NCBI RefSeq assembly: GCF_037042905.1
Contig: NC_087250.1
Span: forward strand, 5,024,001-5,088,000
Reading direction: 5' to 3'
From: Lytechinus pictus
Taxonomy: Eukaryota
DNA: 64,000 nucleotides
Translations under genes and position numbers: made by a program
Shown: piece after piece, positions 1,100 to 52,574 of the stretch
Layout of the letters: every line of letters starts with the position of its first letter
Position numbering within the stretch: position 1 is the stretch's first letter
Notes under the pieces: generated by a model
Told to the model about the DNA's origin: nothing
The model's input: only the letters and a program-made list of their open reading frames with translations
The model's database searches: none

Positions 1100-1294
1100 T
1101 TAATATTCTCTCACAAAAGCATCCCACATTGCATTAGTCTCATTGACAGCCGTTTTGTTGGTGCTGTAATCCAGATTATCCGCATGGTACACAGACACGC
1201 CATAGAGCTGCTTTTCAGCTGCCAATTGGTACCGTAGAGCGAGACTAGTCGGGTCATCGTACCATAACTGGTGGGTCTCGCCAGAACCCATATC
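1100..1294 (-). CDS. CTBS: CTBS-like exon 7 (DMGSGETHQLWYDDP...MWDAFVREY*)
   Basis: ttttcag|GAT; HQxWYDxP and LDYS motifs; TAA stop at 1100. Confidence 0.92.
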   Translation of the reverse strand, partial: DMGSGETHQLWYDDPTSLALRYQLAAEKQLYGVSVYHADNLDYSTNKTAVNETNAMWDAFVREY

Positions 1295-5253: not shown

Positions 5254-5294
<41 letters not shown>

Positions 5295-8200
5295 AATGAT
5301 GATGATGTTGATGATCGATAGTGATAATGACGATGATAATGATGGTGATGATGATTCTGATGATGATAATGGTGATGATTATGGCGGTGATGATGATTAT
5401 TATAATGACGACGGTGATGATGATGATAGGCCTAATGATGATAATGGTGACGGTGATGGTGATGATGATAATGATAATGGTGATGATGATGCTGATGATG
5501 ATGATGATGATCCTGATATTGATTATTATGATGATGTTAATGATGCTAATATTATTTGTGATGATGTACTGGCGGTGGTAGTGTAAGCAGCATGAAAAGT
5601 ATGTGGCAAAACAAAATACAATACAGTATAATTGCACACCATTCTTTTGGATTTTTTTTTGCAAGACTACAACCCAGGCTTCTATGACGTCACATTCACG
5701 TCGACAAGACCCCCTCCCCAACAAAATATCCTGACTTTGCCCCTTCAGCGATTAGAAAATAAAAAGGCTGAAATGTACTTGTTCAATACTTCGGATTGGT
5801 TGGTATAATATCGAAAATACCCTCGTATCGCCCCTGTCATTTATTTGATTCGAAACTAGCCAAACAGATGAGGGTTGATGGTAAGAATGACTTACTACTG
5901 AGTATGGCAGGGCTTTCTTGAAGGCATCTTTTGTCTGTTTGATCATTGCGGTCAGAGTTGGTGCCTGTGACGTCAGCAAAGGGAATTCAAAGTCGATATT
6001 GTACCCATCGATGAAATTATTCACTGCGTAGTTCACGGTATCCTCGACCCACCGATTGCGGGCGCTCTCGTTGAAAAGGGTTTGCACGGAAAAGTATCCT
6101 AAACGTGGGATTGATGTCAACGAAAAAAACCCGAAATAAGATGTAAGTCATGAAAAAAAAGTATTGCAAATTACATTCATAGCTGAGCATGTGCGGAGTT
6201 ACCACAAAGAGATAATCATTGGCTAAAGATATGGTATATAGGCTGTATTTACCAGCGCATCCATAAGTGTGTAGCCCCAACATAATTTTACCCTCTTTCA
6301 GCGATCCATACTGCCTGAGAATGGGCGTGGTCATTCTTATCATATCCTACCTTGTATTTACCGCATTCAGTGATTCGAACACAGTTAGAATGGGCGTGGT
6401 CATTCTTCCCTCACCCAAATAGTACTTACACCATATACAGTGTTAGAACAACGTTAAAATTGACGGTGGTCATTCATGCCTCACCCAACTTCGTATTACC
6501 CGATACAGTGATCTGAACGCCCTCAAAATGGGCGTGGTCATCACTTATACCCAACATAGTATTTACCCCATACAGTGTAAGAACATCCTTAAAATGGGCG
6601 TGGTAATTCTTACCACACCCAAATAGTATTTACCCCATACAGTGTTAGAACAACGTTAAAATTGACGGTGGTCATTCTTGCCTCACCCAACTTCGTATTT
6701 ACCCCATACAGTGAACCAAACACATTTGGAATGGGCGTGGTCATTCTTACCACACCCAACTTCGTATTTACCCCATACAGTGATCTGAACACCCTCAAAT
6801 GGGCGTGGTCATAACTAATACCCAACACAGTATTTACCCCATACAGTGTTAGAACACCGTTAAAATAGGTGGAGTCCTTCTTCCCTCACCCAACGTTGTA
6901 TTTACCCCAAACAGTGTGAGAACATCCTTGAAATGGGCGTGGTTATTCTTACCACACCAAACATAGTATTTACCCCCATACAGTGTAAGAACATCCTTAA
7001 CATGGGCGTGGTCATTCTTACCACACCCAACTGGTATTTACCCCATACAGCGTTAGAACACCGTTAAAATAGGTGGAGTCATTCTTCCCTCACCCAATAT
7101 TGTATTTCCCCCATGCAGTAAACCAACACATTTGGAATGGGCGTGGTCAGTCTTACCACACCCAATATTGTATTTACCCCATACGGTGACCCGAACACCT
7201 TTGGAATGGGCGTGGCATAACAACTCAGGGTCGAAGCCTTCTTGGACAGCTACTGTTGTGATATTGTCCCAGAAGTAGTCTTTCCAGTTCGGGCCATCGA
7301 CAGAAAATACGTGAATCTAAAAAGACAAAGGGTCCACTCTTTATAAATTGGTGATTGGTCACAATTAAATTTACATTAATTTTGTAACATTGCGTTTGCA
7401 ACAGCATAGCTTCTCTGAATAATAATACTGACCAGATGATGCGAGTAGCGCTTAATCATTTTGTGATAACAGGCCTCAGCAAAACTTGAAATATCACACC
7501 TTTCTAATTATTTTTAAACATGGCTTGCGCAGACATAGTGACCAAGAAATACATATAGGCTTAAAAGAATGTCATCGTCGACTATCCTACTGATCTCCAA
7601 CCTACCAGTTTCCAACGTTGTGCCATTGTCAGTTGTTCAACAACTTTCCATCTAACTAGTTTCCAGCTTTATCAACGTTGTGTCATCGTCGACTATCCTA
7701 CTGATCTCCAACCTACCAGTTTCCAACGTTGTGCCATTGTCAGTTGTTCAACAACTTTCCATCTAACTAGTTTCCAGCTTTATCAACGTTGTGTCATCGT
7801 CGACTATCCTACTGATCTCCAACCTACCAGTTTCCAACGTTGTGCCCGTGTCAGTTGTTCAACAACTTTCCATCTAACTAGTTTCCAGCTTTATCAACGT
7901 TGTGTCATGGTCTACTATCTAACTAATCTCCAATCTACCATTATGGTGATGATGATAATGATGATGGTGATTAAGCGCTACTCGCATCATCTGGTCAGTA
8001 TTATTATAGCGATTCAATTTATTTGTTTGTATATACATAACTGTCGATTAAAATTGAGATATGGTGAGATGACAAGATCTTGGATCTCGACATACCATGA
8101 TCTCGTATCTCGTCATGTCTACATCTTTTAAAATAGATGATCAGATGACACAATCATGGATCCGAGATCTTCTCAGTCTTCTCAGTGTGACATCTTGCCA

Positions 8201-12773: not shown

Positions 12774-13040
12774 TAATAATAATAATAATAATAGACAGTT
12801 CTTGTATAGCGCATAACACATTATAAATAACGTCTCTATGCGCTTCCAAAGGACTTGGATATTATTACCCTGACTTTAGCCCCGCAGCCTTTTACAGCGC
12901 TGGGGCATTTCAAGGAATAAATTCCTGCCAGGTACCCATTCACCTCACCTGGGTTGAGTGCAGCACACTGTGGATCAGTTCCTTGCTGAAGGAAATTACG
13001 CCATGGCTGGGATTCGAACCCAGGACCCTCTGTTTAGTTA
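12774..13040 (-). mobile_element. tRNA-derived SINE, 5'-truncated, (ATT)n tail
   Basis: Reverse complement of the B-box (ggattcgaacc) and a body shared with 21786 and 32166. Confidence 0.8.
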
Positions 13041-20394: not shown

Positions 20395-20504
20395 ATGACA
20401 GCCAAGATGGATGTTGCCGTTGTGAAGGATACCTTCACCGCTGCCAAATCAGGCAATGACGTCGACTTTGTACCCTTCCTGAAGGGCTATGACGAGATAG
20501 CAAG
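20395..20504 (+). CDS. GLTP/CPTP-like coding exon 1
   Basis: Acceptor ccatttcag ends at 20369, ATG at 20395, donor CAAG|gtgacg. Confidence 0.85.
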
Positions 20505-23500
20505 GTGACGTATACATGCATCTCAAAATGTAGCCCCCCCCCCCCCGACATAAAATAGGAAGTTCTCAATTCTGTTCAGTTCAGTTCAGTTCTCAGTTCA
20601 CAGTTCTGTGTGCGCGCCCTTCTTGGCGACCCAGATTGGCTGGCTCCTCCAATGCGCCTTTGAATGTCTTTGACAGATATATGGCGCTATACAAATGCTG
20701 TGCATCATCATCATCATCTTCTCGATCCGTGATGTATGGAGTATTCAAGACTAGAGAAAATGTATTGAAAATGCCCGTCAAATGACAAGGAACAGTTTGG
20801 ATGTTTTTGTCGAAAACTGGTAATCCGGAACAGCAGTTTCATCCGAAGCTTCGGAGCTGACGAGAAGTTGCAATTATGTCGTTTGTCCAGAGTCAAGGAC
20901 GAAACAGCTGTTTTGATTCACCAATTTTCGACAAAGACTTCTTGAATGTTCTTTGTCATGTAGGGCATTTGACAATACATTTTCTTTGTTCTTGAACGCT
21001 CCGTAAATCGCGGAGCCTACCCCTCCATATTGAAGCCAACGCAAAGTAATCATGATAATTTCGGTAATTGTTATTTGTTTTAAAATGCGTAATAAATAAA
21101 TAAATGCTAATTCGAAATAACGAGAAACTCCTCCAGAAACGTAAAATATCAACTCGACGTAATCATTGATGGTGAGGGTTCAACTATAGAGAAATGCACA
21201 ATCAGTTTAAGGAACCAAAGTAATAAGCAATTATTCTATTTTTTTTTACATATTACAAAAATTATATTTGTCAGAAATGAACGAAAATAGTGATAAAACA
21301 GGGGCATTTAATAATACTAAAATCCATTAAATAACAAATATTGGGACACAGTAAAAACTGTGGTGATAAACGGTGTACATAGAGGACCACATCAGTTCAC
21401 TTTCGGTTGTTACATTTACACTCTTTGGTGTTATGTTCAATCTCTAGGGTGTAATTTTAACACCTCAGGGTGTGGTCCTCTATTAACACCAACTGGTGTC
21501 AGTTTTAACACCACAGTTTTTTACAGTGGACCTATATCTTCTATAGATTTATTTCTGCTAGTCTTGTGTGAAGACCCACTTGATGATAAAAGTTTCAATC
21601 AGGGTCTGAGCCTTCAGACTACATGGTTTGGGACCTATCCGACCCATTATTTAATCATGATAATGAAATGCAAAGTTCAATAATCAGATAATTTTTTCAT
21701 CAAACCTCTCACCTTCTTTCATATCTGCAAAGGTTTTTGTCGTTTGTTTACTCGTCGCAGAATAAAGAATTTCGCTTTATCACATGTGGGTGCGTCGTGG
21801 TCTAGTGGTTCTGACTCTCGCCTTTCATACAGAGGGGCGTGGGTTCGAATCCTAGCCATGGCGTGTTTTCTTTCAGCAAGAAATTTATCCACACTGTGCT
21901 GCACTCGACCCAGGTGGGGTAAATGGGTACTGGCAGGAAGTTATTCCTCAAAAAGCTGTGCGCACCGGAATCGGTAGACTAGCTTAGCCGGGGTAATATA
22001 GGAGCGCTTTAAGCTCCTAGCAAGGTGGATACGTACGCTATACAAATCCTATATTATCATTATTGTTGTTATTTCCATAGACATGATAGAACCAATCCAT
22101 ATGCGAGCTCAGTCTCCAACTAGTCTGCAAGGCACATACTCATATTTGACACCTTTACCAATAAGTACCATGTCTAGAGTAAAGACAAGATTTCAAACTC
22201 TCTTTCTAAGGCAGTCACACTACAAAGGGAATTTAGTCTCACTACTTCAGACTCTGCATAATGCACTATTCGAATTACGAAAACCAAAGGTCTGTACTTG
22301 CAGACCATCTCCTAAGGGGTCATCTACATTTCGCTTGCATGGGTGGGGTACGTCCTCTCTTGCCGATCCATTCTAGGTCCCGTCCAACAAAGAGTTGCGA
22401 TTGATCCAATCAACCACAACTATGGAAAGCCAGCAAACTCAACATCTAAAATACATGTTTGTTCAAAATATTTCCTAGAAATGATGTATATTCATACATT
22501 CACTGTTTTCTGGACAATCCAGTATGCTTTTTTTTTTTTTTCAAAGGACATTGGGCAACTTTTCAAAAGGAAAAAAATATGACATTAATGGATTTCCATA
22601 TACGTGAGATTGATCAGATCAATCGTAACTCTTTGTAAGACGGGGCACTGATCTACGAGGAACCATGGCTAAAAAATTGAAACAAAATGCAAAGTTGAAT
22701 AAATCAACGTTCGGGGCCCCGTTCCACAAATGTCATTAAATAATCTCTACTTTAAAACAACAAATCTGATTGGTTCCTAGTCAGTCTACTGAGCAAAATG
22801 CGCATGCAACAATGCTCTTGATAGGCCATCTTATTCAGCGATTAATCGCTAACCTTTGTGTTACGGGACCCAGTAATTTACATCAAAACCCTCACCGTCT
22901 AGAGGTAGAGCGCCCACCTCATGAACGGTAGGTCGTGGGTTCGATCCCCACCCTAAGAAAATGGCACCTTCTGCCTTCAGTTGTCAGGCGCCCGACTTAT
23001 AGAATGGAAAATGGTTAAAAATGCAGGACCCGCTGGGGGAACCGTTCATTAGAGCTTAAGTAGCTACACTGGATATACTTATAATCATTAAAATTATTTC
23101 GTTATCTTCGAAGGTTGTACGACAACATGGGCCAGGTCTTCTACTTCGCTTCCAAGGACATGCGATCACGGATCAAGGCAGTCAACAACCTCACCAAGGA
23201 GGATGGGTCCGTCTACACCGCGGTCGTCAAGGCGCTCGATCACGAGAAGGCTCAGGGGATCAAGAAGAAGACCAAGGGCGGGGCCACTGCGGCGTCGAAG
23301 GTCCTCCTGGAGATGCACTGGGATGTCGCCTTCTTCATCTTGATCATGAAGGTATATAGACATTTACTAGTCTGCAAGCACAGACCCTGATTGAAACTTT
23401 GATCAACAAGTGTGTCTCCATGCACGCAAAGACTAGCAGATACAAAACTGCTGAGCGAGAGGGCCTTCAGTACACAAGGCATGAGATTGAGAAGGCTGCA

Positions 23501-24091
23501 CATTCAGACCCTTGACTCGAGTGAAGGGTTTGCACAGCAGACTACTTATGGTCTGGTGTGAAAACCCTTCAGGTCTGACTGTGCAGCTTATAATGCCCTG
23601 TGTAGGTCTACTGAAGGCCCTCTCGCTCAAGTTTTGTATGATTGTGCTATAGTCTTTGTGTGAAGAACATTTGTTGATCAAAGTTTCAATCAGGGTCTAT
23701 GCCTACTGACTATATATTTACTCTCACCCCCACCCCCCCCCCAAAAAAAAGGTATTCACACTGCAAATATACTGTTCATTGTGGCATATCGCCTGTTACT
23801 TTACAGAAAATCACATCATAATAAAGGGTCAGCCGATCGCAATGTGGTCTGTCCTTATTAAGGTTTTCAGGTTTTAACGTAACACTTTAATCATATTATT
23901 ATTATCATCATTATCATTATCTTTATTATTGTTATAATTATTATTATCATTATTATTAATATTATTATCAGTATGATTATTATTGTTAGTAGTAGTAGTA
24001 GTAGTAATGGTAGTACTACTAGTATTAGTAATAGTAGTAGTACTCGTAGTAGTAGTAGTAGTAGTAGTTAGTAGTAGTAGTAGTAGTTGTT

Positions 24092-24143
<52 letters not shown>

Positions 24144-24149
24144 TAGTAT

Positions 24150-24182
<33 letters not shown>

Positions 24183-24188
24183 TAGTAT

Positions 24189-24241
<53 letters not shown>

Positions 24242-24272
24242 GTAATAGTAGTAGTAGTAGTAGTAGTTGTAA

Positions 24273-24316
<44 letters not shown>

Positions 24317-26211
24317 CTAGTACTATTACTATCATCATTGTTATTATTATTATTTACAGAGAATGGGAGAAGCCCAAGACGACACTAAGATGTCACAGCT
24401 TGCAAGGAAGGCCTACGATGATTCCCTCGCCCCTCACAACGCTCTGCCTATCAGAACCGCGGCCCGACTCGCCTGCAAGACCCTGCCAGTTAGGAAAGAT
24501 TTCGTTGAGAAGTAAGTTATAGAGACTTAAATTATGCTACATTTACATCAGCGAAGCCGATTACAAACTGACTGGTGGTATAAAGTCTTTGAAAATAACG
24601 TAGTGGATCGGTAAATTGCCAGTTCGTCTACTGCCAACCCCCAAAATGCTCAAAAGAACCGTGGAAACTAAAACAGGAGCCCTGAAAATCCCAATTTATT
24701 TCCATGTTAAAGCTTATCCAATTTGCAAAATTAGGCAGTATAACGCTGTAAAAAAAGTAGCACCCGAAAATAGAATATGTATATATTTATGTTGCCTATT
24801 CTACCTTGTGCATTTACAACAAACATCCGATTCGTCAATTGCCAACTCGTCCACTCACCACATGTTCTACTATCATTTGGTCTAGTGCAATTCCGTCCAT
24901 TAATGTTTCGTCCGACAACCATTCGGTCCATTACCCATTTGGTCCAATCATCACTTTGTCTAATCACCAGTTCGTCTATGACCAATTCGTCTCATGACAA
25001 GTTGGTCTGATATCCATTTCATTATCACTCATTTTGCACAATTAACACTAAGTCCAATTAGACCAAATGGCTATTGGACCAACTGGTTATTAAACGACAT
25101 GGTGAGTGGAATAATTGGTTATTAGACCATGTAAATAGTGGTAGATCAATTGATAGTAGGCGAGTTTGCATCATGACGAATTGGCATTGGATGAATTTGA
25201 AATAAACCAGTGGATGGGGCCTGTAATACAAAGCTCAATTATCAATCATCGTAAAACATTTTCACGATTGATTGCATTGACTACAATGTACAATTAATCG
25301 TAAAAATCAAGCTTACAATTAATCACCAACCCTGGTCGGACAGGACCCGTCTTGCAAAGAGTTATTATTGATCCGATCAACCATATTGAAATCCATCAAT
25401 GTCATTTTTTTCCCACAGGAAATGTTGACGATGTCCTTTGTAAACTAAAAGAATCTACCTTAAATTTCAGGAAAACCATGAAATAGATGAATATACATCA
25501 CTTACGTATCGAAAAAATTTCGAACAAACATGCATTTTAGATAAGGACGTTGCTGGCTTTCCATAGAATCTGATGTAGTTGATCGGATCAATCGCAACGC
25601 TTTGTAAGACGGGGCCCTAGAGTCAGTTTTATGGGTGTGAGTGTCATTACGAAGTGGGACGGACCTTCTTGACAAGAGCTCTAATCGCCGCCCCAAAGCA
25701 ACGTCCTCTCCCTTCTCATCCTAAATCTTTCTTTTCCATTTCCTTTAGAGGCCTCCCCCAATTTCAAGATCCAAGCTTAAGATGGCGGTCTCCCACTTTT
25801 CAAATGTATTATGTCGTTATATATATTTTTATGCTCATATTCATGTTTCAATAATTTAAAAAGTAATTTTCAGGTGTAAATATATCTTGATTTGTATAAT
25901 GTTATGTTTGTACAATGTTAATCATTATCTTGTCTGCTTATTGTTATATTATATGTTGAAAAAACTTGTGTATACTATTGATACTTTAATGTGGAAACCA
26001 AATCTAATCAAACCCTGTCCATTATTTTTTTTACAGGTACCTGAAACAGAACACCGCCGAGGCCATTGCCCTCCTCCCATCAACGGTGGGGGCGCTACAG
26101 ACGATCCACTCAACCATGGAGGCGGCATTCATCAAGAACGATCTCATGAAGGAAGCCGAGGCTGAAGCAGCAAAGAACAAGGCGGAGGACGCATCACAGC
26201 CAGTGGTCTAA
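20395..26211 (+). CDS. GLTP-domain, ceramide-1-phosphate transfer protein (CPTP/GLTPD1)-like: join(20395..20504,23114..23351,24360..24511,26037..26211), 224 aa
   Basis: GT-AG introns with phases 2, 0, 2; 675 nt open to TAA. Segments 'MGQVFYFASKD', 'AYDDSLAPH..IR..ACKTLP.RKDF' and 'NDLM' align by eye with the CPTP family. Several binding residues differ, so no symbol is assigned. Confidence 0.88.
21347..21528. mobile_element. CAC-ended MITE (GA TSD)
   Basis: ga|cacagtaaaaactgtggtg ... caccacagttttttacagtg|ga. Confidence 0.8.
21786..22065 (+). mobile_element. Full-length tRNA-derived SINE
   Basis: A-box tggtctagtgg, B-box ggttcgaatcc, conserved body, LINE-like 3' end with ATT-rich tail. Confidence 0.88.
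23114..23351 (+). CDS. GLTP/CPTP-like coding exon 2
   Basis: cttcgaag|G ... AAG|gtatat; strong GC3 codon bias. Confidence 0.9.
23368..23712. mobile_element. Palindromic TAGTC-ended MITE (Academ-like) 16 bp after a GLTP-gene donor; related pieces at about 3450, 11269, 14405, 21559 and 22121
   Basis: tagtctgcaagcacagaccctgattgaaactttgatcaacaa versus ttgttgatcaaagtttcaatcagggtctatgcctactgacta. Confidence 0.78.
23893..24320. repeat. Compound (TTA)n/(TAG)n microsatellite in GLTP-gene intron
   Basis: Seen directly. Confidence 0.97.
24360..24511 (+). CDS. GLTP/CPTP-like coding exon 3
   Basis: tttacag|AGA ... GAGAA|gtaagt. Confidence 0.9.
26037..26211 (+). CDS. GLTP/CPTP-like coding exon 4 (YLKQNTAEA...ASQPVV*)
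   Basis: ttttttacag|G; TAA at 26209-26211; candidate AATAAA at 26999-27004. Confidence 0.85.
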
Positions 26212-30140: not shown

Positions 30141-31075
30141 TATAGTCAGTATGTCCACGAACATCAAAATACAGACAACATTGAAGAAACTGCTTCACAA
30201 AAGAATTAAAGTTGATTTTTTTTTCTTTTTAATGATAACGCAAAAACTTTATGAAGAATAATCTCCTCACTTTCAGCCAAATGAGAGAACATGGTTGAAG
30301 GCACGATCAAATATTTCTAAATGATGATTACGTTGAGTTAAGGAATATGCGACGGATACTAGAGCTAAATTTATAGAAAATAGAATAGTGCGAGAAAAAA
30401 GACGCATACAATTTTTTTTTTATAAAACAGGACAGCGATGGAGCAAAGCAACCGAGCTTGTCAGGGGTGCTTTGCATTTTCTGAAAAGAAACTGAAGGAT
30501 ATCGCGACACACTTTTGGTTGATTTTGCGTTTTTTAAATAAAAATGAGGGTTATCAATATTTCGGGGGGGGGGGGGGCAACTACCCCCTGCCTCCCTCCT
30601 GCGTACTGCCATACCATACCAACTGGCAATGGCAAAAAATTAAAACTTATGCTTTTAGTTCTACTTTCTTTTCTTAAAGGTAATGTATATTGGTCAACAA
30701 TTTTATATATACAATCTTATTTCGACTACATGACTTAGAAATTTATTTTCTCAGAGGCATTACATTTTCTACAAGCTCTGCCTCTTTTTTAGTGATTTAT
30801 TTATCGTGCTTTCTACATCATGTGTAATAAATCTATTTATTTTGTATATGTATCAAAGAATTATTGCCAATTTACTTCAATTTTTATGTACAATTTTTTT
30901 CTCTATGTTTTTGTATTGTATTCTTGAATTGTTCATTAGACATATGAGAAATAAAATACCCCTTGAACTGAAATAGTTTAAGGGAGCAACTGGTAATTTA
31001 TTAAAGTGGAATGATGTGCGACCTGAAGGTGAGTTGTGTGTGTTTGGTAAGCTATCGATGAGGGCGCCCTCCCTC

Positions 31076-31383
31076 TCACATTGTGCCATCTTCCATGGGG
31101 TCATCATCACGAGGCCCGTGGTCTGGACCAGGGTTTGGTCCATGGTCTGGTCCGCCGTGTTCGCTGCTTCCACCATGTCCATGAGGGCGATCGTTATTCT
31201 CTCCAGAGTGTCCCGGTGGTCCATGGTGTGGTCCGTGTCCGTGGTGTGGTGGTCCATGATGCCCCTCGTTTTCGCTGCTACCACCATGATGCCCATGGTG
31301 GTCGTCGTTATTCTCCCCTGAGTGTCCCGGTGGACCACGGTTGAGGTGATGTTCTTCGCTGTTGCCCCCAGGGCCACCACTAC
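31076..31383 (-). CDS. His-rich membrane protein exon 4
   Basis: aattgcag|GT; GC-rich; 101 codons of mostly G/H/P/S/D/E/N, then TGA. Confidence 0.85.
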
Positions 31384-34300
31384 CTGCAATTGCAAGTAAA
31401 AGTGAATTGAAAGTTTGTGATCATGAATAATACAGCTTTATAAACCCCAAAATAGAAGATTTACTTACTTACATGACAATCAAAATAATTACTTTGCGCA
31501 AATAAATGCCTTGATAATATTTCTATGGTAAAATAATAATATTATTATAGCATTTGTAAGGCGCCGAATATCTAGTTGCATATTCACTGGCGCTTTCTCA
31601 CCGTGTCTTTAAGCCCAAGCTGCTTATGTATAAGGCGCTTCAAAAAATTACTCCTACCGGGAACCCATTTACTTCACCTGGGTTGAGTACAGCACGACGT
31701 GGGTTAATTTCTTGCCGAATAAAACTACGCCATGGCTGGGTATCGAATCCACAACCCTCTATTTCGAAGTCAGCATAACCCCAGTCAGCTTCTTACCATT
31801 TCTTGGAGGAGGTGGTCGCATTTCATCGCCATGGTCTGCCTGAAACTTATCCCAACGGTGATGACCTCCACCATACTACAATTAAAATAAATGAAGAGAG
31901 AGAGAGAGAGAGAGAGATAGAAATATTAAGTAGGTATTTTAATCTACATCATTCTTTCAAATACAGAAGTAGAACAAAAGAAAGCGGTCATGTTGTTGAT
32001 TAACATAACATATATTGACATTCTCATGATACTGTAGGGCTGGCCTGCCTGCAATATTAATTGTTCAAATTTACTCTTTGTGTTATTCGTTCGAATCGAA
32101 ACTGAAACATCATGATGTTATCAAATATGGAATTAAAAACAGGGGCTCTTGTTACAATGATGTCAATATAATAATATAGGGTATTTATATTGCGCACATA
32201 TCCACCTTGTTAGGTGCTCAAGGCGCTCCTATATTACCCGGCTAAGCTAGGCGTTCATAGCGCACACAGCTTTTTAAGGAATTACTTCCTACCGGTACCA
32301 ATTTACCTCACCTGGGTTGAGTGCAGCACATTGTGGATCAGTTTCTTGCTGAAGGAAATCACGCCATGGCTGGGATTCGAACCCACGACCCTCTGTTTCA
32401 AAGTCCGGGGACTAATCCATTGGGCCACAACGCTCCACAATAATACCATCACAATGGATCGTAAAACGTAATATATATGATCATAAGCATGTATATTCTC
32501 ACAGAGAGAACAACAATATTTATGTAGGCAAAAAGGAATTATTAACATATGTTAATGTCCAATCGAACAATAAGTTAGTTGGTTGGAATGAAACAAAAAA
32601 TATCACACAGACATGTCACTGATAATTCTATCAGTGAGTAAAGAAACATCTTCACTCTTGACCCCTCTCCCTTTTCTCTCGGCTAGCTCCTTCCCTTTCC
32701 CCACCCTCTCTCTCCCTCGCTGGATCCCTCCTCCCCCTCTCTCTGATCGGCCTCCCCCTCCCCCTTTCCTCCCCCTCACTGAGGCTGTTCTCACTACGTT
32801 CCTAAAACTAGTTTACTGGAAACTAGTTTACTGGAAACTAGTTTAGTGGAAACTAGTTTAACGCGTAGTGAGAACGGTCGAAGCGGTCTTGGAAGCGATC
32901 TTCCAAACCAGTTTGGAAAACCACCTCGCGATGTAGTTTTCAAGATCGCTTTGCCTTGTTAAACTGGTTTTAGCGTAAGTGAGGACACAACCGTTCTTCG
33001 GGAAGCGATCTTCGCACATTTTGAGCGCGCTACTCCACACGACAGGTGTAGAATGCCTATGCTGCGGTTTCGAATTTCGCGCGAAACGTGTCACCCCACT
33101 GAGAGCGTTTCCATAGCAACAAGAGCGCTTTACGTGAAGTGATTTTGAAAACCACTTTCGTGTGATCAAGTGGGAACGCTAGCAAAGCGATATTCCAAAG
33201 TGGTTTCCTGAATCGGTTTCCAGTAAACTAGTTTTAGAAAGCGTAACGAGAACGGCCTTTATTCTCCTCTCTCTCTCTCCCTCTCACCCTCTCACCCTCG
33301 GATCCCCTCTCCCCCTTTCTCTCTTCTTTGGCCATCCCTCCCCCATTTCTGCCCCTCCCGGTCCCTCTCTGTGCTTACCGAATTGCCACCAACCTCCCTT
33401 GACTAGCGCCCCCTCAGTCTCCTACATCTCACACCCTCACTCTCTCCTTAAGTTCTCCTCCCTCCCGCCCTAGCTCCCCCTCCTCCCAGTGGCGTAGCTA
33501 GGATTTTTTTCCCGGGGGGGCACTGGGGGGTCCTTGATTTTTCAGGGGGGGCACCGACCATTTTTCCGGTGTGTGCGTATGTGTCACAAGGGCGGATCCG
33601 ACTTTCGTCAATAGGGGACGGGGCGCGAAATTATCTTCACCTATATCAGTCACTTCTTAGTTTTATTCTTATAAAACGACATAAACATGAAATAATCTGA
33701 TAAGCCTTATGAAAAGTGCGAGCGCGAAGCGCGAGCGATTTTTTTTTTTTACTTTCATGTATTTTTAATCTAATTTTCTGGGCGATGTTATGTGTGATCC
33801 TGAACAAGATTCGTATGTAACTAGATGGGTACTGCGAACGCCAAGCGCGAACAGAAATTGTTATCAACTGTTCTAGCATTATCGAAAAGGGACCTGTTAA
33901 GAACTGCTTACAGTTACCCACGAAGACGGTATATATTTCAATAATGCGAGCGCGAAGCGCGAGCAATTTTTTTTTACATTCCGACCTAAAAAATGATCAT
34001 TCTAAGCACTTTTTGTATTAATAAATGGGATAGGTATGTAACTAAAAAATTGATGCGAGCGCGAAGCGCGAGAGGAAGAAATTGAGATTTTAGACCTAAA
34101 AGCGGGACACTCTATTCACATTTTGTAAATCATAAATAGGATATAGTCAATGGGGTATCATTAATAATGCGATCGTGAAGCGTGAGCAGACAATTATTGA
34201 TATTCTGATGTGAAACTGGATAATTTAAGTACATGTACATTTTAAATAAAGAACATGCAGGCTATCGCGCATGTTGTAGATTTAGACCTAGAATCTGGGC

Positions 34301-37300
34301 ATTCTGAATACATTTGTTTAATGGAACATTATGGAATACACGTAGACAATATGAACTTCGCAAATCAAACAATGTGACCAAGCAGCTTGAGCTTAAAATG
34401 CTGATATATGTAGACCATAAAACGGACATTTTACAGAGCACTTATTTGTAAATGAAAAAAAAAATAATAAAAGCTTGATGTCCGAGCTAAAATATGTGTT
34501 GCATATTGACTTCAAAACTTGCTCCATATCAGCCTATTGAGCAAGATATGAATCTCATCGAACAGGCACTTCTGGCGCGAAGCGCCAGCAAAAATTTTAT
34601 ATAGTAACATGAAAAGATTTGTTTTTTAATTACATTATTTAATTCACTCGTCTTTCTCCTCTTATTTTCTTCTTCTTTTTTTTTCTTCTGTCTTTCTTCT
34701 TCTTTTCCTTTTTTTTTTCCTTTTTTCTTTTCTTCTTTCTCCCTTTTTTAATTTTTTTTTGCTCTGCCATTTTTTTCTGGGGGGGCACCTGGGGGGGCAC
34801 ACCAAATCTCAGGGGGGGCACGTGCCCCCCCAGGCCCCCCCGTAGCTACGCCACTGCCTCCTCCGCTCACAGATGTGCTTACCGAATTGCCACCAACCTC
34901 CCTTGACTAGCGCCCCCTCAGTCTCCTACATCTCACCCCCTCACTCTCTCCTTCTTCGCATCCCTCCCTCCACCCCGCCCTAGCTCCGCCTACCCCGCTC
35001 ACAGATGTGCTTACCGAATTGCCGCCAACCTCCCCTGACTAGCACCCCTCGGTCTCTTACATCTCACCCCCTCACTCTCTCCTTCCCATCCCACCCTCCC
35101 GCCCTAGCCCCTCCCCCACACACAAAATTGCTTACCGAATTGCCACACCAGCCTCCCCTGACCAGCATCCTGTGAGTGAAGAAACCGATGCATCCCACAA
35201 GGAGCAGTGCTGTCACCACACCCATGGTGATCTTCTGCCATCGCTTCAGGGAACTACAGCAGCCTCCTCTAGCGCCCTCTCGCGTCTGGACGGCGAGTTC
35301 ATTTTCGAGCTTGTCTGTCGGGATTGGTACCTGTAAAACGATATGGATATTTATAATTTGGTTTATATCTATATAGGGGCCGCGCGGAAGGGTTTCGAAA
35401 GTGAGGGGGGGGGGGGGCTGACCATGTAAATCAGATGGTCATTAATTTACGCTTTTGTATACACGGTTTTGAAAAGAAGTGGGAGCCCCCTGCCCGGTTC
35501 TGCAGCCCCGTCTGTTACGATCTAGGGACACCAATTAAGTTTGTCAGTTTGGACACCGAGTTTACAGTGAACCTGTAGAAAAAAAAAATCCGTTGTCATA
35601 AAAGACGGAGGCCATATATTCAATGCCAATAATAAGACGAATACTCTGCCATATATTTACCAATTCAAGCCACCCATACAATGGTACTGGAGTAAATTCA
35701 ATTAAAACTGAATCATAATACTGTATATTATAATATCTAATTGAGTGAAATTTCACTCGCTTTCCACTCCCTTGGTGGTAACTACGACAAGGATCACTCA
35801 ATATGGAGTGAATTTACAATGAACACGTGAACATTTCATACATATTACACTTTAAAAAGGGTGACATTCACTCACAATAAGTGCAAGTCACTCTCAATCC
35901 AGTTCATATCATTCACTCCCTCTGATGAGTAAATTACTAATACTTGGCGTTTTTTTAAGTAGGTGTACAACTACACAGAGACGGAACTAGGTAATGAGTT
36001 AGAGGGGGGGGGGGGGGGGGCTCACCTAAATGACGTCATTTTCTCTCTCAGTAGAATACCAATATATTTCAATTTCAATTGAAATGTCGCCTGGTAGTAT
36101 AAATTACAAGGATATTGGTGGGTTTTTTTTATATTTTAAATAAACTGAGTAGAATTGGCTGGCAGTGGCGTACAGATGGGAGGGAACTCTTGCTGTTCGC
36201 TCACTCGCAAGTTTTGTTTTTAAAGAAATTTTTCCCGATACAACCGACGAATCTGGTTCATTATTCATGGTGCCCGATGGATCCGACTACCCGTCAATAA
36301 TTATCACAGAAATCCGGTGTGCCTCAGTGCCGGATCGAGAAGGGGGGGGGGGGGGAGGGGCGGGGACTGAGAGGGGCACTTATACCAAGACCTCAGCAGC
36401 AGATTTTTTTTCCTCGAAGGGCTCGTCAAAAAAAATTCCGACAAATGGTGGTAACTTTTAACGCCTTTTTTTTTTTGCTTTTCAATTCCTTTCCTTCAGT
36501 AAGCGGACTATACATCACCGCGTTGACACGGATATCCGTCACTCGGCCAACATACGCACATGTGAGGTATGAAAAAGGGAATTCGCATCCTGCAGGGCAC
36601 TGAACTTCACTTTGCTTATTTGGCCATCGTTATTTCGAAATTCCAAGTAGGGGTGAATCGATTCGGGTTTATAATATACAAGGAAAGGGTGGCAGTAGTG
36701 GCACAGAAAACTGTCATCAATTCGATATCTTTCATTTTTTGTCTTTAATTCTTTCTCTCTATAAAACATGACAGGCAAATGGTAAAAAGAAAAAGAAGAC
36801 ACAAACTAAAAATCGGTCACTTTCTCTTTCTGTATCTAAAATAAATGACAGGTGAAAAGATAAAAAGAAAAGTCTCTTTACTTCAAAAGGGATCGAATTT
36901 CATCCTCTCTTCATAAGGGAGGGTGCACAGCAGGTGCAGTTCCCTTTTCTCTAGGAATGTTAAAAATATAGATGAGCCCCCCCCCCCCCCTCTCCACAAA
37001 GGGCATTCACAATAGAAGAGCATTTTTACCTCCAAAAAATAAACTTAACATGCACCTCCCCTTTCTGGTTCTTGCCTGCACAGACACAAGATACTAAAGG
37101 GTATTCTTATAGTTTGCAAAATATAGGTCACATTGAGAGCCCGCCCCCCCCCCCTTCCTGGCATACAGTATCTACGCCTAAAATTTCGAGTTGGGCTATT
37201 GTACATCGTTTAACCTTTCAATGACGAGTATAGCTCAAAATGATAATAAATTCCATTTATTGTAAAGAAAAAAAATCAAAATAGCGTAATTTGTTCCTTG

Positions 37301-38459
37301 TACCAACCATGGGTCTCTCCGCCACTGAAAAAGAAAAATGAAAAAAAAAATTACGGCCACATATCTGATCATACTGAGCGACCTTTCCTAAACGCCTTAT
37401 ATCGCTACAAGATTGGTTTTGTTTTTCTCTCTTTTTCGATCTTTTGATATATGTTTTTTTTTCTAAATAACTTGTTTTTGCAGAAGGAGAGGGGTCATTT
37501 TGTTTACGTCAAGAGTCTGACTACCCCCCATAAAATACCCCAAATATGCAAAACAAAATAATTAAAACCAATTTAGGTCCGCCATGAACGCAAGATACTC
37601 CACAACCTATCATAATATGTATACTACAGATTATTAATACAGTAACAGAACGGTATAGAGTACAGTTACATAAAACAAGCTGTGATAGTGTAATGATTAC
37701 ATTATGGTACAAAATATTTAACATGGTTATAAAAAGCAGACATAAATGTAAAATTGGATGAACAACAACAACAAAATAAATTATGAAGATCATTTCCTCG
37801 GAGATTAAGTATCCGAAGGCCCTGTTTTTACTTTTGGAGGGGCCAGACATGACGTATAGGGCAAAATTTCTCAAAAGCTGCCCAAAATTAAACTTTTTAA
37901 AACAAATTCTTGATATGTGATATATTTTGGCATAATAATCACAAAACAATATCATATTTCATCCCGTTTTCCTTCCTCTTTCTTTCTTTTCCTCCCTTTT
38001 CCTTGGTAGTTAACATTTTTGGTTTTTCTTTGTTTTTTTAAGGGGGGGGGGGAGGGTCCATGGCTCAAGCCCCCCCCCCCCCCCGTTCATCTGTGCGTTA
38101 GTGTTAAGTATGATTTATAAATCATGTCTAGATGAAATTGTATAAACGAAACATCCAGTATGCACTTACATGCGATATGTATGCGATTACATCCTTCCTT
38201 TTCATATACATGATATATCACTATTTAATCAAAACCGCAGTTCCGTATACAATTTAGGTATACATGTCCTACTTAAAAAAACAACAACAAGCCTAAAATG
38301 TTTTTTCCACACACGAGTCTTGTTATGTTATTGTAGACAAATAGAGATAAGTAAGATATGAAAATATAAAAATATTACCTCAGTTTGACCAGCTTCCTTC
38401 GCCTTCTCTGCCGCTTTCTGCTGGGCTGGGTCAATGGCAAAAACACTTGGTTTTACCAT
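31076..38459 (-). CDS. Uncharacterised single-pass (predicted type II) membrane protein with His/Gly/Pro-rich repetitive C-terminus: complement(join(31076..31383,31797..31875,35136..35330,38379..38459)), 220 aa
   Basis: Four exons joined by GT-AG introns with phases 0, 0, 1 give one 663-nt frame: MVKPSVFAID...GQTE|VPIPTDK...GGCCSSLKRWQKITMGVVTALLLVGCIGFFTHR...GNS|YGGGHHRW...PPPPRNG|SGGPGG...GPPGHSGENND...MEDGTM*. Minus-strand AATAAA at about 30796-30801. Confidence 0.8.
31531..31770 (-). mobile_element. Degenerate copy of the same SINE
   Basis: cacctgggttgagt.cagcac and gccatggctggg.atcgaa.cc blocks. Confidence 0.75.
31797..31875 (-). CDS. His-rich membrane protein exon 3
   Basis: aattgtag|TAT ... 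AATG|gtaaga. Confidence 0.8.
32166..32438 (-). mobile_element. Full-length tRNA-derived SINE
   Basis: Reverse-complement match to 21786-22065; A and B boxes intact. Confidence 0.88.
32782..33258. mobile_element. TIR MITE (PIF/Harbinger-like ends) with aaactagtttactgg repeats
   Basis: aggctgttctcactacgttcctaaaactagtttactgg versus ccagtaaactagttttagaaagcgtaacgagaacggcct. Confidence 0.8.
33372..35170. repeat. Four copies of a 121-132-bp unit containing the end of exon 2 and its donor (GGCAATTCG|GTAAGCA) of the His-rich gene; one unit interrupted by a hAT element
   Basis: gcttaccgaattgcc recurs with the donor G at 35135, 35014, 34882 and 33378. Confidence 0.9.
33487..34856. mobile_element. 1370-bp non-autonomous hAT-like element, TIR cagtggcgtagcta, exact TSD cctcctcc
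   Basis: TSD at 33479-33486 and 34857-34864; interior carries gcgagcgcgaagcgcgagc motifs. Confidence 0.92.
35136..35330 (-). CDS. His-rich membrane protein exon 2 (transmembrane helix)
   Basis: ttttacag|GTA ... TCG|gtaagc; 65 codons; hydrophobic stretch ITMGVVTALLLVGCIGFF. Confidence 0.8.
38379..38459 (-). CDS. His-rich membrane protein exon 1 (MVKPSVFAIDPAQQKAAEKAKEAGQTE)
   Basis: acgATGG start context, donor GAG|gtaata, 27 codons in frame with exon 2. Confidence 0.7.
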
Positions 38460-49794: not shown

Positions 49795-50597
49795 ATATTG
49801 TCGCCCTATACAAGTGTTGTACATGTATCTAGGTTACGATAACAAAGACGGCAAAATGGCGACAATAACAGAGCTCCTGTTCTTAATTATTTTTATCATT
49901 TGTCTAATTAAAAAAAAAATGAATGCACAACCATCAGTACGTGCGGGGGGCAAATAGACTTTTAGCCCATTTCTATAAGTTTGGGCTCAAAACCTTAAAG
50001 CCTATCTATAGGAGACTGACTTTTACTCTCCAGGAGCCTACAGGCTATGCTGACCTGCAGTTGCCCTGGCTTGGCCTGACTTGTTTGCAAAGTAAGACAG
50101 TCTTTAGACTTGCCTCCTACCAGGGCTGCCAATTCTCATTAATTTCGAGCGAGACTCGCCCATTTTGTCCTTTCTCACCCATTTCATGCTTTTATTCAGT
50201 AGAAATTAAAAAATGTCGTCTAGACTCACAGACTAGTGCGAAAAGGATTTACAGATATGAGAGAGTATATGTTTAGCTTTAAGTTGATACTGTACCAATT
50301 TCATGACGATATCTCTCTGTTCAACTGAGATATCGTATGTTCACCCGTATGAAAAGTGTAACAACACCACCTTTTTGTTGGGGCGAGTTCAAGACACATA
50401 GCCATCTTCACACAAGAAACACAATGCAAAGGAAGTCAATGGGGGAGATTATGTCATTATCTAAAGAAACAAGTCAGAAAATGCTTCAGACTCAGAGATT
50501 TATCTCCAATAAAAAGTATGTAATGAAAGCTTGCAATTTCCCCCTTCTCAATTTTCCCATTTGCAGTGTTAGTCTGAGTTTTGGACAGGGGACTGCA

Positions 50598-52574
50598 ATG
50601 GCCACCAAACCAGATTCGGTCCAGGGATTGCACTGTCCAATGTGTCTCGATGTCATCAGGGACGCTACCATTCTCTGCTGTGGACATTCCTTTTGCAGGG
50701 ACTGCCTGGAAGCATATGACAAACAGCACAAGGACCTGAAGCACATTGTCTGTCCAGTCTGCAGGAAGTCCACCAAGCTTGACAAGGACCGGATCGCGGG
50801 ATTAACGCCCAACTTCCTGGCCAAGGGACTTGAGGATATCCTGAAGGTCGAAGACAGCGGAGAAAGTATTGAAGACGCATATTCCAAATTCTGTCCTTTT
50901 CACAGTGACATCTACCAAGATATATACTGTCAGGCTTGTACTAAGTTCATCTGTCTCTCATGTTTTATTGACTCTCATCAAGGTCATAAGATTAAGAAAA
51001 AGGAGGAGCTTGAGCGGGAGTTAAAGATCAGAAAAGAAGCTGTTCTGCAGAGAAGCGAGATAAGAAAGACCCAACTTGAGAAACACTTGAGTGAAGCTGA
51101 CCAACAAAGAGAGCAACTGAAATCCCACCTGGGTAGTTTGGAGATGAAAGTCATGGATGCCTTTGCCATCAAAGTTGATATTCTTCAGCGAAATAAAGAA
51201 GAGTTGCTAGAAAAGATAACAGGTCTCAAAGTAACTTCTGACAGGGTGTTCGGGCATTGCACTTCTCAGTGGAGGGAAGTGATCGACAGGATAGACCAGT
51301 CTAGCAAACTTTTGATAAGTCATTCAAAGAAGCATCTTGATCCAAATGTGATTGAAGGGGACAATCTTAAATGCGATGATCTAGAAAAAGCATTGGCTAA
51401 AACTACAGATGAGGAAACTTTAGTTTGTGCAGCACAATTATTGAAAGATGTAGAGGCCGTACAATTCAGTCCTGCTGATGATAAGCTTCTTGACCTAGGC
51501 TGTATGGATTCTGGTCAGAAGGACAATTTGAATGGCAGTCAGAACATGAATGTGGCTTCTTTAGTATCTGAAGAGTCCAGTGTTCCGCAGGCTAGCAGCA
51601 CAGAAACCTTGATTCTCCATCTGAATCCCGTGACAGAAGGAAAGCTTCTTTTTGCCACAGAAGGAAAGGGAACAAGGAAACGTAGGAGGAACAGGAAAAG
51701 AGTTCAGCAAGCTACAAGCATTGATTCCCCATTTCCAGAATATGCACGGCTTTCAAAGTCTGTAAAAATTGTTATGGCCAGTGGCTTCTCTTTCCAGGAA
51801 GGTCGCTTGTTTGGACTTGCAGCTCTGACAAAAGATTCAGTTGTTCTCGGTTATGCCATGGACCGAAAGGGTTGTGACCGCTACACTCTCTCTGGTAATG
51901 AGTCTCCATACTTTGGCAGTCAGGTAGGCGAGGTCTATGATGTAGCATTACTGTCTGATGGTCGGACCATCATCTCAAAGCACGGAAATGAGTTCTTTCT
52001 ATACAGCTCCTGTTCCAGTAATGGAGTTAGATTTACTTTGAAGCAACCTGATGGGGGATTCGTCCGAGTATGCACTGATATTCATGATAACATCTATGCT
52101 GTCAACATCAATCGCGAGATCTGCATCTTCCGCGCCAGTGATGCTAAACCACAGAAAGTGATTCCCACCGGGGGAATCCAGCCAAAGCAGATCAGCGTTA
52201 CCAAGACTGGCATAATGATCACCACTACCGGAGACATCCAACCTAGCACGGTCACAGTCTTTGACCAGGAAGGGCGTGCCGGAACCTCCATCGTTGCTAC
52301 AAAGAACTTTGAGTATGTGTACGCCACAGTGGACAGCCAGGACCGCGTCTTGGTAGCCAAGGTGCACAGTGGTTCAGACAAGATCGATCTAACCAGGTAC
52401 AGGTTGCAGGGTCTCCAGCTCGTAAAGGAAGTGATCTTTGCTCCTGTTACAATGTCCTGTCCAATCTATTCCAGTATGTTCTTGAGTTCATTCTTCTATA
52501 TTGTCAGCCTTAGCCCGGCCATGGTTGCAGTTGCGACCAGGCACCATCTCTACTTCATAGAGCTTCAAGCCTAG
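50598..52574 (+). CDS. TRIM-family E3 ligase (RING-HC, B-box2, coiled coil, NHL-like beta-propeller; TRIM56/TRIM2-3/TRIM71-like architecture), single coding exon, 658 aa
   Basis: RING CPMC..CGHSFC..C..CPVC; B-box CPFH..CQAC..ICLSC..H..H; heptad-rich region; beta-strand repeats at the C-terminus. Likely start MATKP (gcaATGG) just after a polypyrimidine tract and acceptor at 50565-50566. The ORF track extends the frame to 50337. Confidence 0.92.
   Translation: MATKPDSVQGLHCPMCLDVIRDATILCCGHSFCRDCLEAYDKQHKDLKHIVCPVCRKSTKLDKDRIAGLTPNFLAKGLEDILKVEDSGESIEDAYSKFCPFHSDIYQDIYCQACTKFICLSCFIDSHQGHKIKKKEELERELKIRKEAVLQRSEIRKTQLEKHLSEADQQREQLKSHLGSLEMKVMDAFAIKVDILQRNKEELLEKITGLKVTSDRVFGHCTSQWREVIDRIDQSSKLLISHSKKHLDPNVIEGDNLKCDDLEKALAKTTDEETLVCAAQLLKDVEAVQFSPADDKLLDLGCMDSGQKDNLNGSQNMNVASLVSEESSVPQASSTETLILHLNPVTEGKLLFATEGKGTRKRRRNRKRVQQATSIDSPFPEYARLSKSVKIVMASGFSFQEGRLFGLAALTKDSVVLGYAMDRKGCDRYTLSGNESPYFGSQVGEVYDVALLSDGRTIISKHGNEFFLYSSCSSNGVRFTLKQPDGGFVRVCTDIHDNIYAVNINREICIFRASDAKPQKVIPTGGIQPKQISVTKTGIMITTTGDIQPSTVTVFDQEGRAGTSIVATKNFEYVYATVDSQDRVLVAKVHSGSDKIDLTRYRLQGLQLVKEVIFAPVTMSCPIYSSMFLSSFFYIVSLSPAMVAVATRHHLYFIELQA

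What the first reader, a model, noticed from the sequence alone, without database searches (positions are those of the whole stretch)
31076..38459. Hidden 4-exon gene for a type II membrane protein with a histidine-rich disordered ectodomain
Seen: four exons not recovered by the ORF track splice in phase to 220 aa. About 60 N-terminal residues end in GGCC...KRWQK, then one hydrophobic helix, then about 128 residues with 23 His, abundant Gly/Pro/Asp/Glu and a duplicated GPPGHSGENND...HGGSSE module. Established: basic residues before a TM helix with no signal peptide favour N-in topology, and His-rich low-complexity tracts bind Zn/Cu/Ni and titrate near neutral pH. Inference: a lineage-specific surface or vesicle-lumen protein that binds metal or mineral. 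Its composition recalls sea-urchin Transformer (185/333) and biomineral matrix proteins, but the architecture differs. I recognise no family for it.
Basis: partly seen in the sequence, partly recalled or inferred. Interest (0 to 1): 0.75.

Follow-up and report, generated by a model that had tools for sequence, protein, structure and literature searches.

The report
Sea urchin histidine-rich membrane protein
This is a real sea urchin gene, already predicted in databases but never studied, for a membrane-anchored protein with a conserved inner tail and a floppy histidine- and acid-rich outer part that probably binds metals in a pH-dependent way, more likely in immune or gut-type cells than in the skeleton.

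Summary
The four-exon gene is real. The spliced 220-aa product is identical to RefSeq XP_054756940.2 (Lytechinus pictus), so it is uncharacterised, not hidden; its database names reflect composition only. Orthologues were found in L. variegatus, Strongylocentrotus purpuratus and two Diadema species, and none outside sea urchins in searches of limited reach. Type II topology is supported by charge bias in 7 of 7 proteins. New here: the N-terminal tail is the conserved part (56% identity to Diadema), with invariant di-Cys and a post-helix Cys89. The ectodomain keeps its composition (His 14-18%, acidic, disordered) but not its sequence. It fails the defining features of Transformer, ITM2/BRICHOS, PNUTS, Catsup and HRG. 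Published L. variegatus single-cell tables, linked to the gene by name and synteny (inferred), show it in a lysozyme/AIF1/cathepsin/LAMP2 cluster and some other clusters, but not the skeletogenic one. Its peptides are absent from a spicule peptide list. Best reading: a tethered, pH-titrating His/acid metal chelator on phagocyte-like or gut-like membranes; a biomineral role is disfavoured. No junction reads or binding data were obtained.

The parts
38379..38459 (-). Coding exon 1 (aa 1-27, start of the conserved cytosolic tail); donor GTAATA, phase 0
   Evidence: MVKP, I9, D10, Q13, K15, A16, K19, A20, E22-G24, E27 invariant in 7 of 7 rows
35136..35330 (-). Coding exon 2 (aa 28-92): rest of tail, di-Cys, basic cluster, transmembrane helix, WCG; donor GTAAGC, phase 0
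35256..35261 (-). Cys51-Cys52, invariant; candidate palmitoylation sites on the cytosolic side (inference)
35175..35231 (-). Single transmembrane helix, aa 61-79
   Evidence: hydropathy; AlphaFold block pLDDT 85 and 84 for aa 61-80
35145..35147 (-). Cys89, invariant; candidate inter-chain disulfide on the luminal side (inference)
31797..31875 (-). Coding exon 3 (aa 93-119, start of ectodomain); donor GTAAGA, phase 1; its second half (18 aa) is absent from short RefSeq isoforms
31076..31383 (-). Coding exon 4 (aa 119-220 and TGA): His/Gly/Pro/Asp/Glu-rich disordered region
31304..31336 (-). Copy 1 of the duplicated GPPGHSGENND module
31190..31222 (-). Copy 2 of the duplicated module, 29 of 33 nt identical to copy 1
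30742..31075 (-). Probable 3' UTR with AATAAA at 31002, 30841, 30801 and 30747

Best explanation
An undescribed euechinoid family of single-pass type II membrane proteins. Shown: gene structure, five-species orthology, one helix, no N-terminal leader, a conserved 50-residue N-terminal tail with invariant CC and Cys89, and an ectodomain conserved in composition only. Inferred, step by step: the helix acts as a signal-anchor with the N-terminus in the cytosol (about 0.85). CC is palmitoylated and the tail binds a conserved trafficking or scaffold partner through a non-canonical motif (0.5). Cys89 links two chains (0.5). The disordered His/Asp/Glu ectodomain binds Zn/Cu/Ni in vitro (0.75) and gains 18-27 charge units between pH 8 and pH 5, so it holds metals at seawater or coelomic pH and releases them, or turns sticky for polyanions, in acidifying vesicles. 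Most likely role: a tethered metal and pH buffer or scavenger on the surface and endo-lysosomal membranes of phagocyte-like and gut-like cells (0.45), not a skeletal matrix protein.
For: Identity to RefSeq and orthologues. Charge difference C minus N flank is negative in 7 of 7 proteins: -1.5 in this one, -3.5 in S. purpuratus, -6 to -7 in Diadema. Tail identity to Diadema 28 of 50 (z 16.5; 0 of 200 shuffles reach it); ectodomain 29 of 110 (z 1.1; 35 of 200 reach it), yet His 14-18% and D+E 16-35% in all seven. AlphaFold gives no secondary structure after residue 86. S-x-E motifs, 2-6 per ectodomain, fit a secretory-pathway kinase (motif recalled). PMC12521550 supplement 6: LOC121417461 in 64.5% vs 6.6% of cells of 5%-FBS cluster 11 (adj. 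p 7e-32), whose top rows include lysozyme, AIF1, two cathepsin L, a DNase II-type gene, LAMP2, PLEKHM1 and DMBT1. The id link is backed by a ceramide-1-phosphate transfer protein gene five ids away, matching the GLTP-domain neighbour in the window.
Against: No binding, localisation or topology experiment exists. In L. variegatus the charge bias is only -0.5. Charge inversion by pH 5.5 occurs only in L. pictus; Diadema stays at -9 at pH 5 (textbook pKa values). No YxxPhi, acidic dileucine or DxxLL motif in any of 7 tails. The LOC-to-protein link is inferred. The expression data are from cultured cells; cluster 11 is about 31 cells (inferred from the fractions). The genes also mark clusters 1 and 5, whose top markers I did not read, and 15%-FBS cluster 9, whose mid-list rows look ciliated or epithelial. 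They have no row in the 10%-FBS sheet or the bulk table. No junction reads.
Confidence: 0.45

Rival explanations
1. Membrane-tethered pattern-binding or adhesion protein of immune cells that works like Transformer or HRG: the cationisable His-rich disordered arm binds microbial or anionic surfaces, and metal binding is incidental.
For: Transformer's His-rich recombinant fragment binds microbes (PMC5491942, passages); phagocyte-like co-markers; fast ectodomain divergence with isoform and allele variation.
Against: One copy in 64 kb and at most two per species in the records seen; ectodomain strongly acidic at pH 8, -14 to -27; also listed in other, non-phagocyte-looking clusters.
Confidence: 0.2
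2. Biomineral or mineral-vesicle protein: the acidic, phosphorylatable, His-rich arm binds Ca/Mg or amorphous calcium carbonate in skeletogenic cells, or in adult test and tooth.
For: Acidic disordered ectodomain with S-x-E motifs, 35% D+E in Diadema; about a third of spicule matrix proteins are transmembrane (PMC2909932, passages).
Against: 0 of 6 S. purpuratus peptides in 9 spicule supplement files, including a 1,316-row peptide table, and 0 of 6 in 4 phosphoproteome files; no positive control was run and the search database may have lacked the gene. Not listed for skeletogenic cluster 9 or pigment cluster 8 of the 5%-FBS culture. Test, spine and tooth supplements could not be read.
Confidence: 0.12
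3. Reverse topology (N out, C in): the His/acid arm is a cytosolic metal sensor or buffer, like the His-rich cytosolic tails of some receptors and transporters.
For: Two Arg follow the helix in camarodonts; charge bias only -0.5 to -1.5 in Lytechinus; an N-glycosylation sequon is present only in the L. pictus ectodomain (1 of 4 tested).
Against: A 60-residue charged N-terminus with no leader; Diadema flanks +5 versus -1 to -2; CC plus basic cluster before the helix.
Confidence: 0.12
4. A derived ITM2/BRI-family paralogue that kept the type II anchor and juxtamembrane Cys but replaced BRICHOS with a His-rich arm; its function lies in the tail and helix (partner binding, regulated shedding).
For: BRI2 is type II, dimerises through Cys89 (PMC4578630, passage) and has Lys at position 3 (PMC5824958, passage). 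This family has invariant K3 and C89, and conservation sits in the tail.
Against: No BRICHOS, no RVxF, no RxxR site in the ectodomain; no ITM2 protein among the 2 hits in 1.84 billion; the N-terminal region of BRICHOS proteins is poorly conserved (PMC2751770, passage). A juxtamembrane Cys is common in unrelated type II proteins such as the transferrin receptor (recalled).
Confidence: 0.11

Closest known systems
RefSeq predicted proteins XP_054756940.2 (L. pictus), XP_041467109.1 / XP_041467054.1 (L. variegatus), XP_001176234.3 (S. purpuratus), XP_071486269.1 (Diadema antillarum)
   Same: The first is this protein letter for letter; the others are its orthologues.
   Different: Their names (PP1 regulatory subunit 10-like, histidine-rich glycoprotein-like, catecholamines up-like, keratin-like, PRP33, uncharacterized) disagree with one another and are backed by no domain. 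Six accessions returned 0 papers.
Sea urchin Transformer (Trf, Sp185/333) proteins (PMC5491942, PMC8634487; passages)
   Same: Gly- and His-rich, intrinsically disordered, sea-urchin-specific; phagocyte-like expression is shared if the id link holds.
   Different: Trf has two exons, a hydrophobic leader, usually RGD, mosaic elements and about 50 clustered genes, and was reported from camarodonts only. This gene has four coding exons, no leader, an internal anchor, four Cys, one or two copies, and occurs in Diadema.
ITM2A/B/C (BRI proteins), BRICHOS superfamily (PMC2751770, PMC4578630, PMC5824958; passages)
   Same: Type II single-pass layout, similar tail length, luminal juxtamembrane Cys89, Lys3.
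   Different: No BRICHOS domain, RVxF motif or furin-released peptide; sequence homology not shown.
Vertebrate histidine-rich glycoprotein and other His-rich metal-binding disordered regions (recalled)
   Same: His/Gly/Pro-rich low-complexity arm expected to bind Zn and switch charge at acid pH.
   Different: HRG is secreted and has cystatin domains; this protein is membrane-anchored, more acidic and has no folded ectodomain.
Skeletogenic membrane proteins P16 and P58 (table rows in PMC13200730)
   Same: Lineage-restricted transmembrane proteins; P16 has an acidic low-complexity ectodomain (recalled).
   Different: P58 is listed as type I, and both are enriched in primary mesenchyme cells; this protein is type II with no sign of skeletogenic enrichment.

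Membership tests
Transformer (Trf, 185/333) | Two exons, the first encoding a hydrophobic leader | tested here: not met
   Four coding exons; maximum hydropathy -0.26 in windows starting at residues 1-25; feature from PMC5491942
Transformer (Trf, 185/333) | Gly-rich and His-rich disordered mature protein | tested here: met
   Ectodomain G 24%, H 18%, disordered; Gly and His are mixed rather than in separate regions
Transformer (Trf, 185/333) | Central RGD motif in most members | tested here: not met
   Absent in 4 of 4 camarodont proteins, present in 3 of 3 Diadema proteins inside an acidic tract
Transformer (Trf, 185/333) | Tightly clustered multigene family with mosaic elements | tested here: not met
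   One copy in the 64-kb window; one or two gene records per species; whole genome not available
Transformer (Trf, 185/333) | Sequence homology of the His-rich region to Trf elements | not tested
   No Trf sequence was fetched; homology searches used the N-terminal part to avoid low-complexity hits
ITM2 / BRICHOS | BRICHOS domain | tested here: not met
   No Pfam family at cut-off in 5 proteins; no fold after residue 86
ITM2 / BRICHOS | Type II single-pass membrane protein with luminal juxtamembrane Cys | tested here: met
   Predicted only; BRI2 Cys89 from PMC4578630
ITM2 / BRICHOS | N-terminal RVxF motif (BRI2) and furin-type C-terminal site | tested here: not met
   0 of 7 proteins for either pattern; motif from PMC5824958
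ITM2 / BRICHOS | Homology of tail and helix to ITM2 N-termini | tested here: inconclusive
   No ITM2 hit at E<=0.001 in 1.84 billion proteins or in the PDB, but the threshold is too strict for a short divergent region and no direct pairwise test was possible
PPP1R10/PNUTS (RefSeq name) | TFIIS N-terminal domain, RVxF motif, CCCH finger, no membrane helix (recalled) | tested here: not met
Catsup/ZIP7 (RefSeq name) | Multi-pass ZIP transporter domain (recalled) | tested here: not met
   Single helix, no Pfam hit
Histidine-rich glycoprotein (RefSeq name) | Signal peptide and cystatin domains (recalled) | tested here: not met
Skeletal matrix or PMC membrane proteins | Occluded in spicule, or enriched in skeletogenic cells | tested here: inconclusive
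   Negative in spicule and phosphoproteome files (no positive control) and in cultured-cell tables via an inferred id link; test, spine and tooth supplements unreadable
His-rich metal-binding proteins (functional class) | Measured Zn/Cu/Ni binding | not testable with these tools
   Needs ITC or ICP-MS; only composition is shown (7 HH and 3 HxH motifs)

The most novel reading that the evidence does not exclude
A euechinoid-invented phagosomal or endosomal pH-gated metal trap and microbe-binding receptor: an old type II anchor, possibly an ITM2 that lost BRICHOS, carries a His/acid polyampholyte selected for composition alone. It would be a membrane-bound, single-copy counterpart of Transformer proteins that reaches deeper in the sea urchin tree than Trf is reported to, and a new component of invertebrate nutritional immunity.
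Probability: 0.15. Interest if true: 0.7.

Novelty: new variant of a known kind. Interest (0 to 1): 0.38.

Why it matters
If the reading holds, it adds an unnamed, mis-annotated family to the sea urchin immune and gut toolkit. It is also a clean case of a disordered domain kept by composition while its anchor is kept by sequence. L. pictus is genetically tractable (recalled) and the window shows one copy, so knockout, tagging and a metal titration are all straightforward. It also corrects five misleading database names. It does not overturn a principle: His-rich disordered metal binders and type II anchors are both well known.

Tried and rejected
Whole-genome search: no genome is held. Read-level junction test: no result was obtained, so the three junctions rest on RefSeq models and cross-species frame conservation. 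Pfam: one sub-threshold hit, Band_3_cyto (E 0.24, 11.4 bits against a cut-off of 34.3), rejected; none for Diadema. PDB sequences: 0 hits for the full protein; 4 weak hits to Sec61 gamma helices (E 0.24-1.3), rejected as generic transmembrane similarity. ESM Atlas: no usable hit in 2 of 2 calls. A search with the Diadema N-terminus found only Diadema, 2 of 75 candidates, and missed even the known orthologues, which shows the limited reach of word-seeded searches. Metagenome contigs: 0 of 597 pattern matches confirmed. Homodimer prediction of residues 1-100: no verdict, score 0.02, alignment not used; not evidence either way. No fold search was run, because the model's mean pLDDT is 50.7. Literature: 0 papers for six accessions, six peptides, PRP33 + sea urchin and Lytechinus + single-cell + histidine-rich + marker; three unrelated papers (listing only). 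Supplements of PMC13200730: 0 hits in 12 files. LvN1.2 was considered from memory and dropped (recalled as ependymin-like; not tested). Earlier scan notes: nothing on this gene; the 8 of 38 notes shown concern other genes.
Full report
Observation. The ATG has a good context and an in-frame stop four codons upstream, with no AG between, so no leader can be added. Residues 93-220 hold 23 His in 128 aa. The duplicated module lies 114 nt apart with 29 of 33 nt identical. Splice sites alone are only moderately convincing: acceptors are in the top 2-4% of 482 AG sites, but two of three donors only in the top 22% of 406 GT sites.

The gene is real and already predicted. A search with exon 2 gave 4 hits among 66 candidates. 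The best, P0004, is RefSeq XP_054756940.2 of Lytechinus pictus and equals the spliced product letter for letter. That record may derive from this same genome. Independent support comes from frame-conserved orthologues in L. variegatus (89-92% in the alignment), S. purpuratus (61%) and, through an exhaustive HMMER scan (2 hits in 1,835,955,588 proteins) and a profile search (6 hits among 7,997 scored candidates), Diadema antillarum and D. setosum (34-36%). RefSeq isoforms in three species vary at or next to the exon 3/4 boundary, which suggests a shared intron. Five runs guessed or recorded as RNA hold 0.43-0.97 of the 61 sampled words of exon 4 and the 3' UTR; four of them are one study and their RNA status is a guess. 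No read-level junction result was obtained. Nothing was found outside euechinoid sea urchins, but the reach is limited: a Diadema query missed even the known orthologues (2 of 75 candidates), and cidaroids and other echinoderms were not searched directly.

No family fits. Pfam gave nothing at cut-off for 5 proteins. PDB gave nothing for the full protein and only generic helix matches for the profile. The ESM Atlas gave no usable hit. The RefSeq names differ from record to record and follow composition. Six accessions and six peptides returned 0 papers; searches found nothing relevant. Subscription journals and unseen supplements could still hold a description under another gene id.

Anatomy. 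One hydrophobic segment, aa 61-79, is the only confident element of the AlphaFold model (block pLDDT 85 and 84; mean 50.7; no secondary structure after residue 86, alignment of 7). The C-minus-N flank charge is negative in 7 of 7 proteins, weakly in Lytechinus (-0.5 to -1.5) and strongly in Diadema (-6 to -7). With a 60-residue leaderless N-terminus this favours N-in, type II topology (established rule, not measured). The main new result is where conservation lies. Against Diadema the tail up to CC is 28 of 50 identical (z 16.5, 0 of 200 shuffles), the helix region 10 of 38 (z 2.9), and the ectodomain 29 of 110 (z 1.1, 35 of 200 shuffles reach it). His stays at 14-18% and D+E at 16-35% in all seven. 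CC and Cys89 are invariant. The tails contain no YxxPhi, acidic dileucine, DxxLL or RVxF motif (0 of 7). With textbook pKa values the ectodomain gains 18-27 charges from pH 8 to pH 5; it turns positive by pH 5.5 only in L. pictus.

Where it is expressed. In PMC12521550 (section 8, passages, and parts of supplementary files 6 and 8 read; file 6 is cut in storage; 3 of 15 files not searched; cluster labels are in figures I could not see) exactly two L. variegatus ids carry the name histidine-rich glycoprotein-like in file 6, LOC121417421 and LOC121417461, and they co-vary. I infer that they are the two L. variegatus records of this family, which bear that name. A ceramide-1-phosphate transfer protein gene is five ids from one of them, and the window's neighbour is a GLTP-domain gene. 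A thiolase gene precedes each id, which points to a duplicated block. The link is inferred, about 85%. Their 8 rows fall in 5%-FBS clusters 1, 5 and 11 and 15%-FBS cluster 9. The strongest is cluster 11 (64.5% vs 6.6% of cells, log2FC 1.53), whose top rows include lysozyme, AIF1, two cathepsin L, a DNase II-type gene, LAMP2, PLEKHM1 and DMBT1; I read this as phagocyte-like. The skeletogenic cluster (9) and pigment cluster (8) of that culture have no row. Against a purely immune reading: 15%-FBS cluster 9 shows ciliary and epithelial genes in the mid-list rows read, clusters 1 and 5 were not characterised, the 10%-FBS sheet and the bulk table have no row, and these are cultured cells. In the spicule proteome (PMC2909932; passages and supplement search) 0 of 6 peptides occur in 9 files, including a 1,316-row peptide table; likewise 0 of 6 in 4 phosphoproteome files (PMC2830187). 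No positive control was run. The test/spine and tooth supplements (PMC2527298, PMC2614417) were unreadable, and their main texts never mention histidine.

Mechanism. Shown: gene, family, single helix, conserved tail and cysteines, composition-conserved disordered arm. Inferred: signal-anchor insertion; palmitoylation at CC; a disulfide dimer at Cys89; a conserved cytosolic partner that sets the location; and a His/acid arm that chelates transition metals at pH 8 and releases them or changes partners as a vesicle acidifies. I put this tethered metal/pH buffer on phagocyte-like and gut-like membranes at 0.45, microbe binding at 0.20, a biomineral role at 0.12, reverse topology at 0.12 and an ITM2-derived tail function at 0.11.

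Comparison. It may work like Transformer or HRG in chemistry but is a member of neither. Trf has two exons, a leader, usually RGD and a cluster of about 50 genes (PMC5491942, passages), and was reported from six camarodont species (PMC8634487, passages). The ITM2 likeness began as a recollection. Passages confirm that BRI2 is type II with a Cys89 dimer (PMC4578630) and an RVxF motif at residues 3-6 (PMC5824958). BRICHOS, RVxF and the furin site are absent here, the N-terminal region of BRICHOS proteins is poorly conserved (PMC2751770), and no direct sequence test was possible. Passages of PMC5727130 and PMC13382797 added little; PMC13200730 gave only table rows for P16 and P58.

Verdict. Observation confirmed; interpretation partly supported. 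An already predicted, unstudied, mis-named sea urchin family that combines known parts in an undescribed way. Interest 0.38.

Noticed in passing
window 33352-35170 (intron 2 and end of exon 2): The last about 24 nt of exon 2 with its GTAAG donor recur three more times (motif at 35023, 34891, 33387) in a 132-bp tandem array, creating decoy donor sites.
   Followed up: partly
window 33487-34856: A 1,370-bp insertion with perfect 14-bp terminal inverted repeats and an 8-bp target-site duplication (CCTCCTCC) splits that array; looks like a non-autonomous hAT-type element (class recalled).
   Followed up: partly
window 31847 / 31379: The short L. pictus RefSeq isoform needs a weak GTTTCA donor and an acceptor shifted by 4 nt. 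L. variegatus has Gly-Lys codons at this spot, which could form a GTAAG donor, where the window reads GATAAG; the L. pictus short isoform may be a mapping artefact or an allele difference.
   Followed up: partly
RefSeq records P0004, P0009, P0012, P0008, P0013, P0016, P0017: Two near-identical gene records exist in each of L. pictus (older version), L. variegatus and D. antillarum. The window's protein mixes residues of the two older L. pictus records, and a thiolase id precedes both L. variegatus ids: uncollapsed haplotypes or a segmental duplication.
   Followed up: partly
window about 20400-26200 (+): [quoted passage not shown]
   Followed up: partly
window 50307-52574 (+): Intronless 755-codon ORF with RING and B-box fingers, a TRIM-like E3 ligase.
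   Followed up: partly
window about 1100-7316 (-): Exons of a glycoside hydrolase 18, chitobiase-like gene (weak Pfam hit, E 0.008; name recalled), with a 68-bp tandem array at 6320-7215 next to one exon.
   Followed up: no
window 32200-32430, 31590-31780, 12830-13000, 21700-21950: Several copies of a tRNA-derived SINE-like repeat, two of them inside introns 2 and 3 (seen; class recalled).
   Followed up: no
window 32805-33260: Element with AAACTAGTTT-rich ends and a 15-bp tandem repeat at 32805-32860 inside intron 2, possibly another small inverted-repeat transposon.
   Followed up: no
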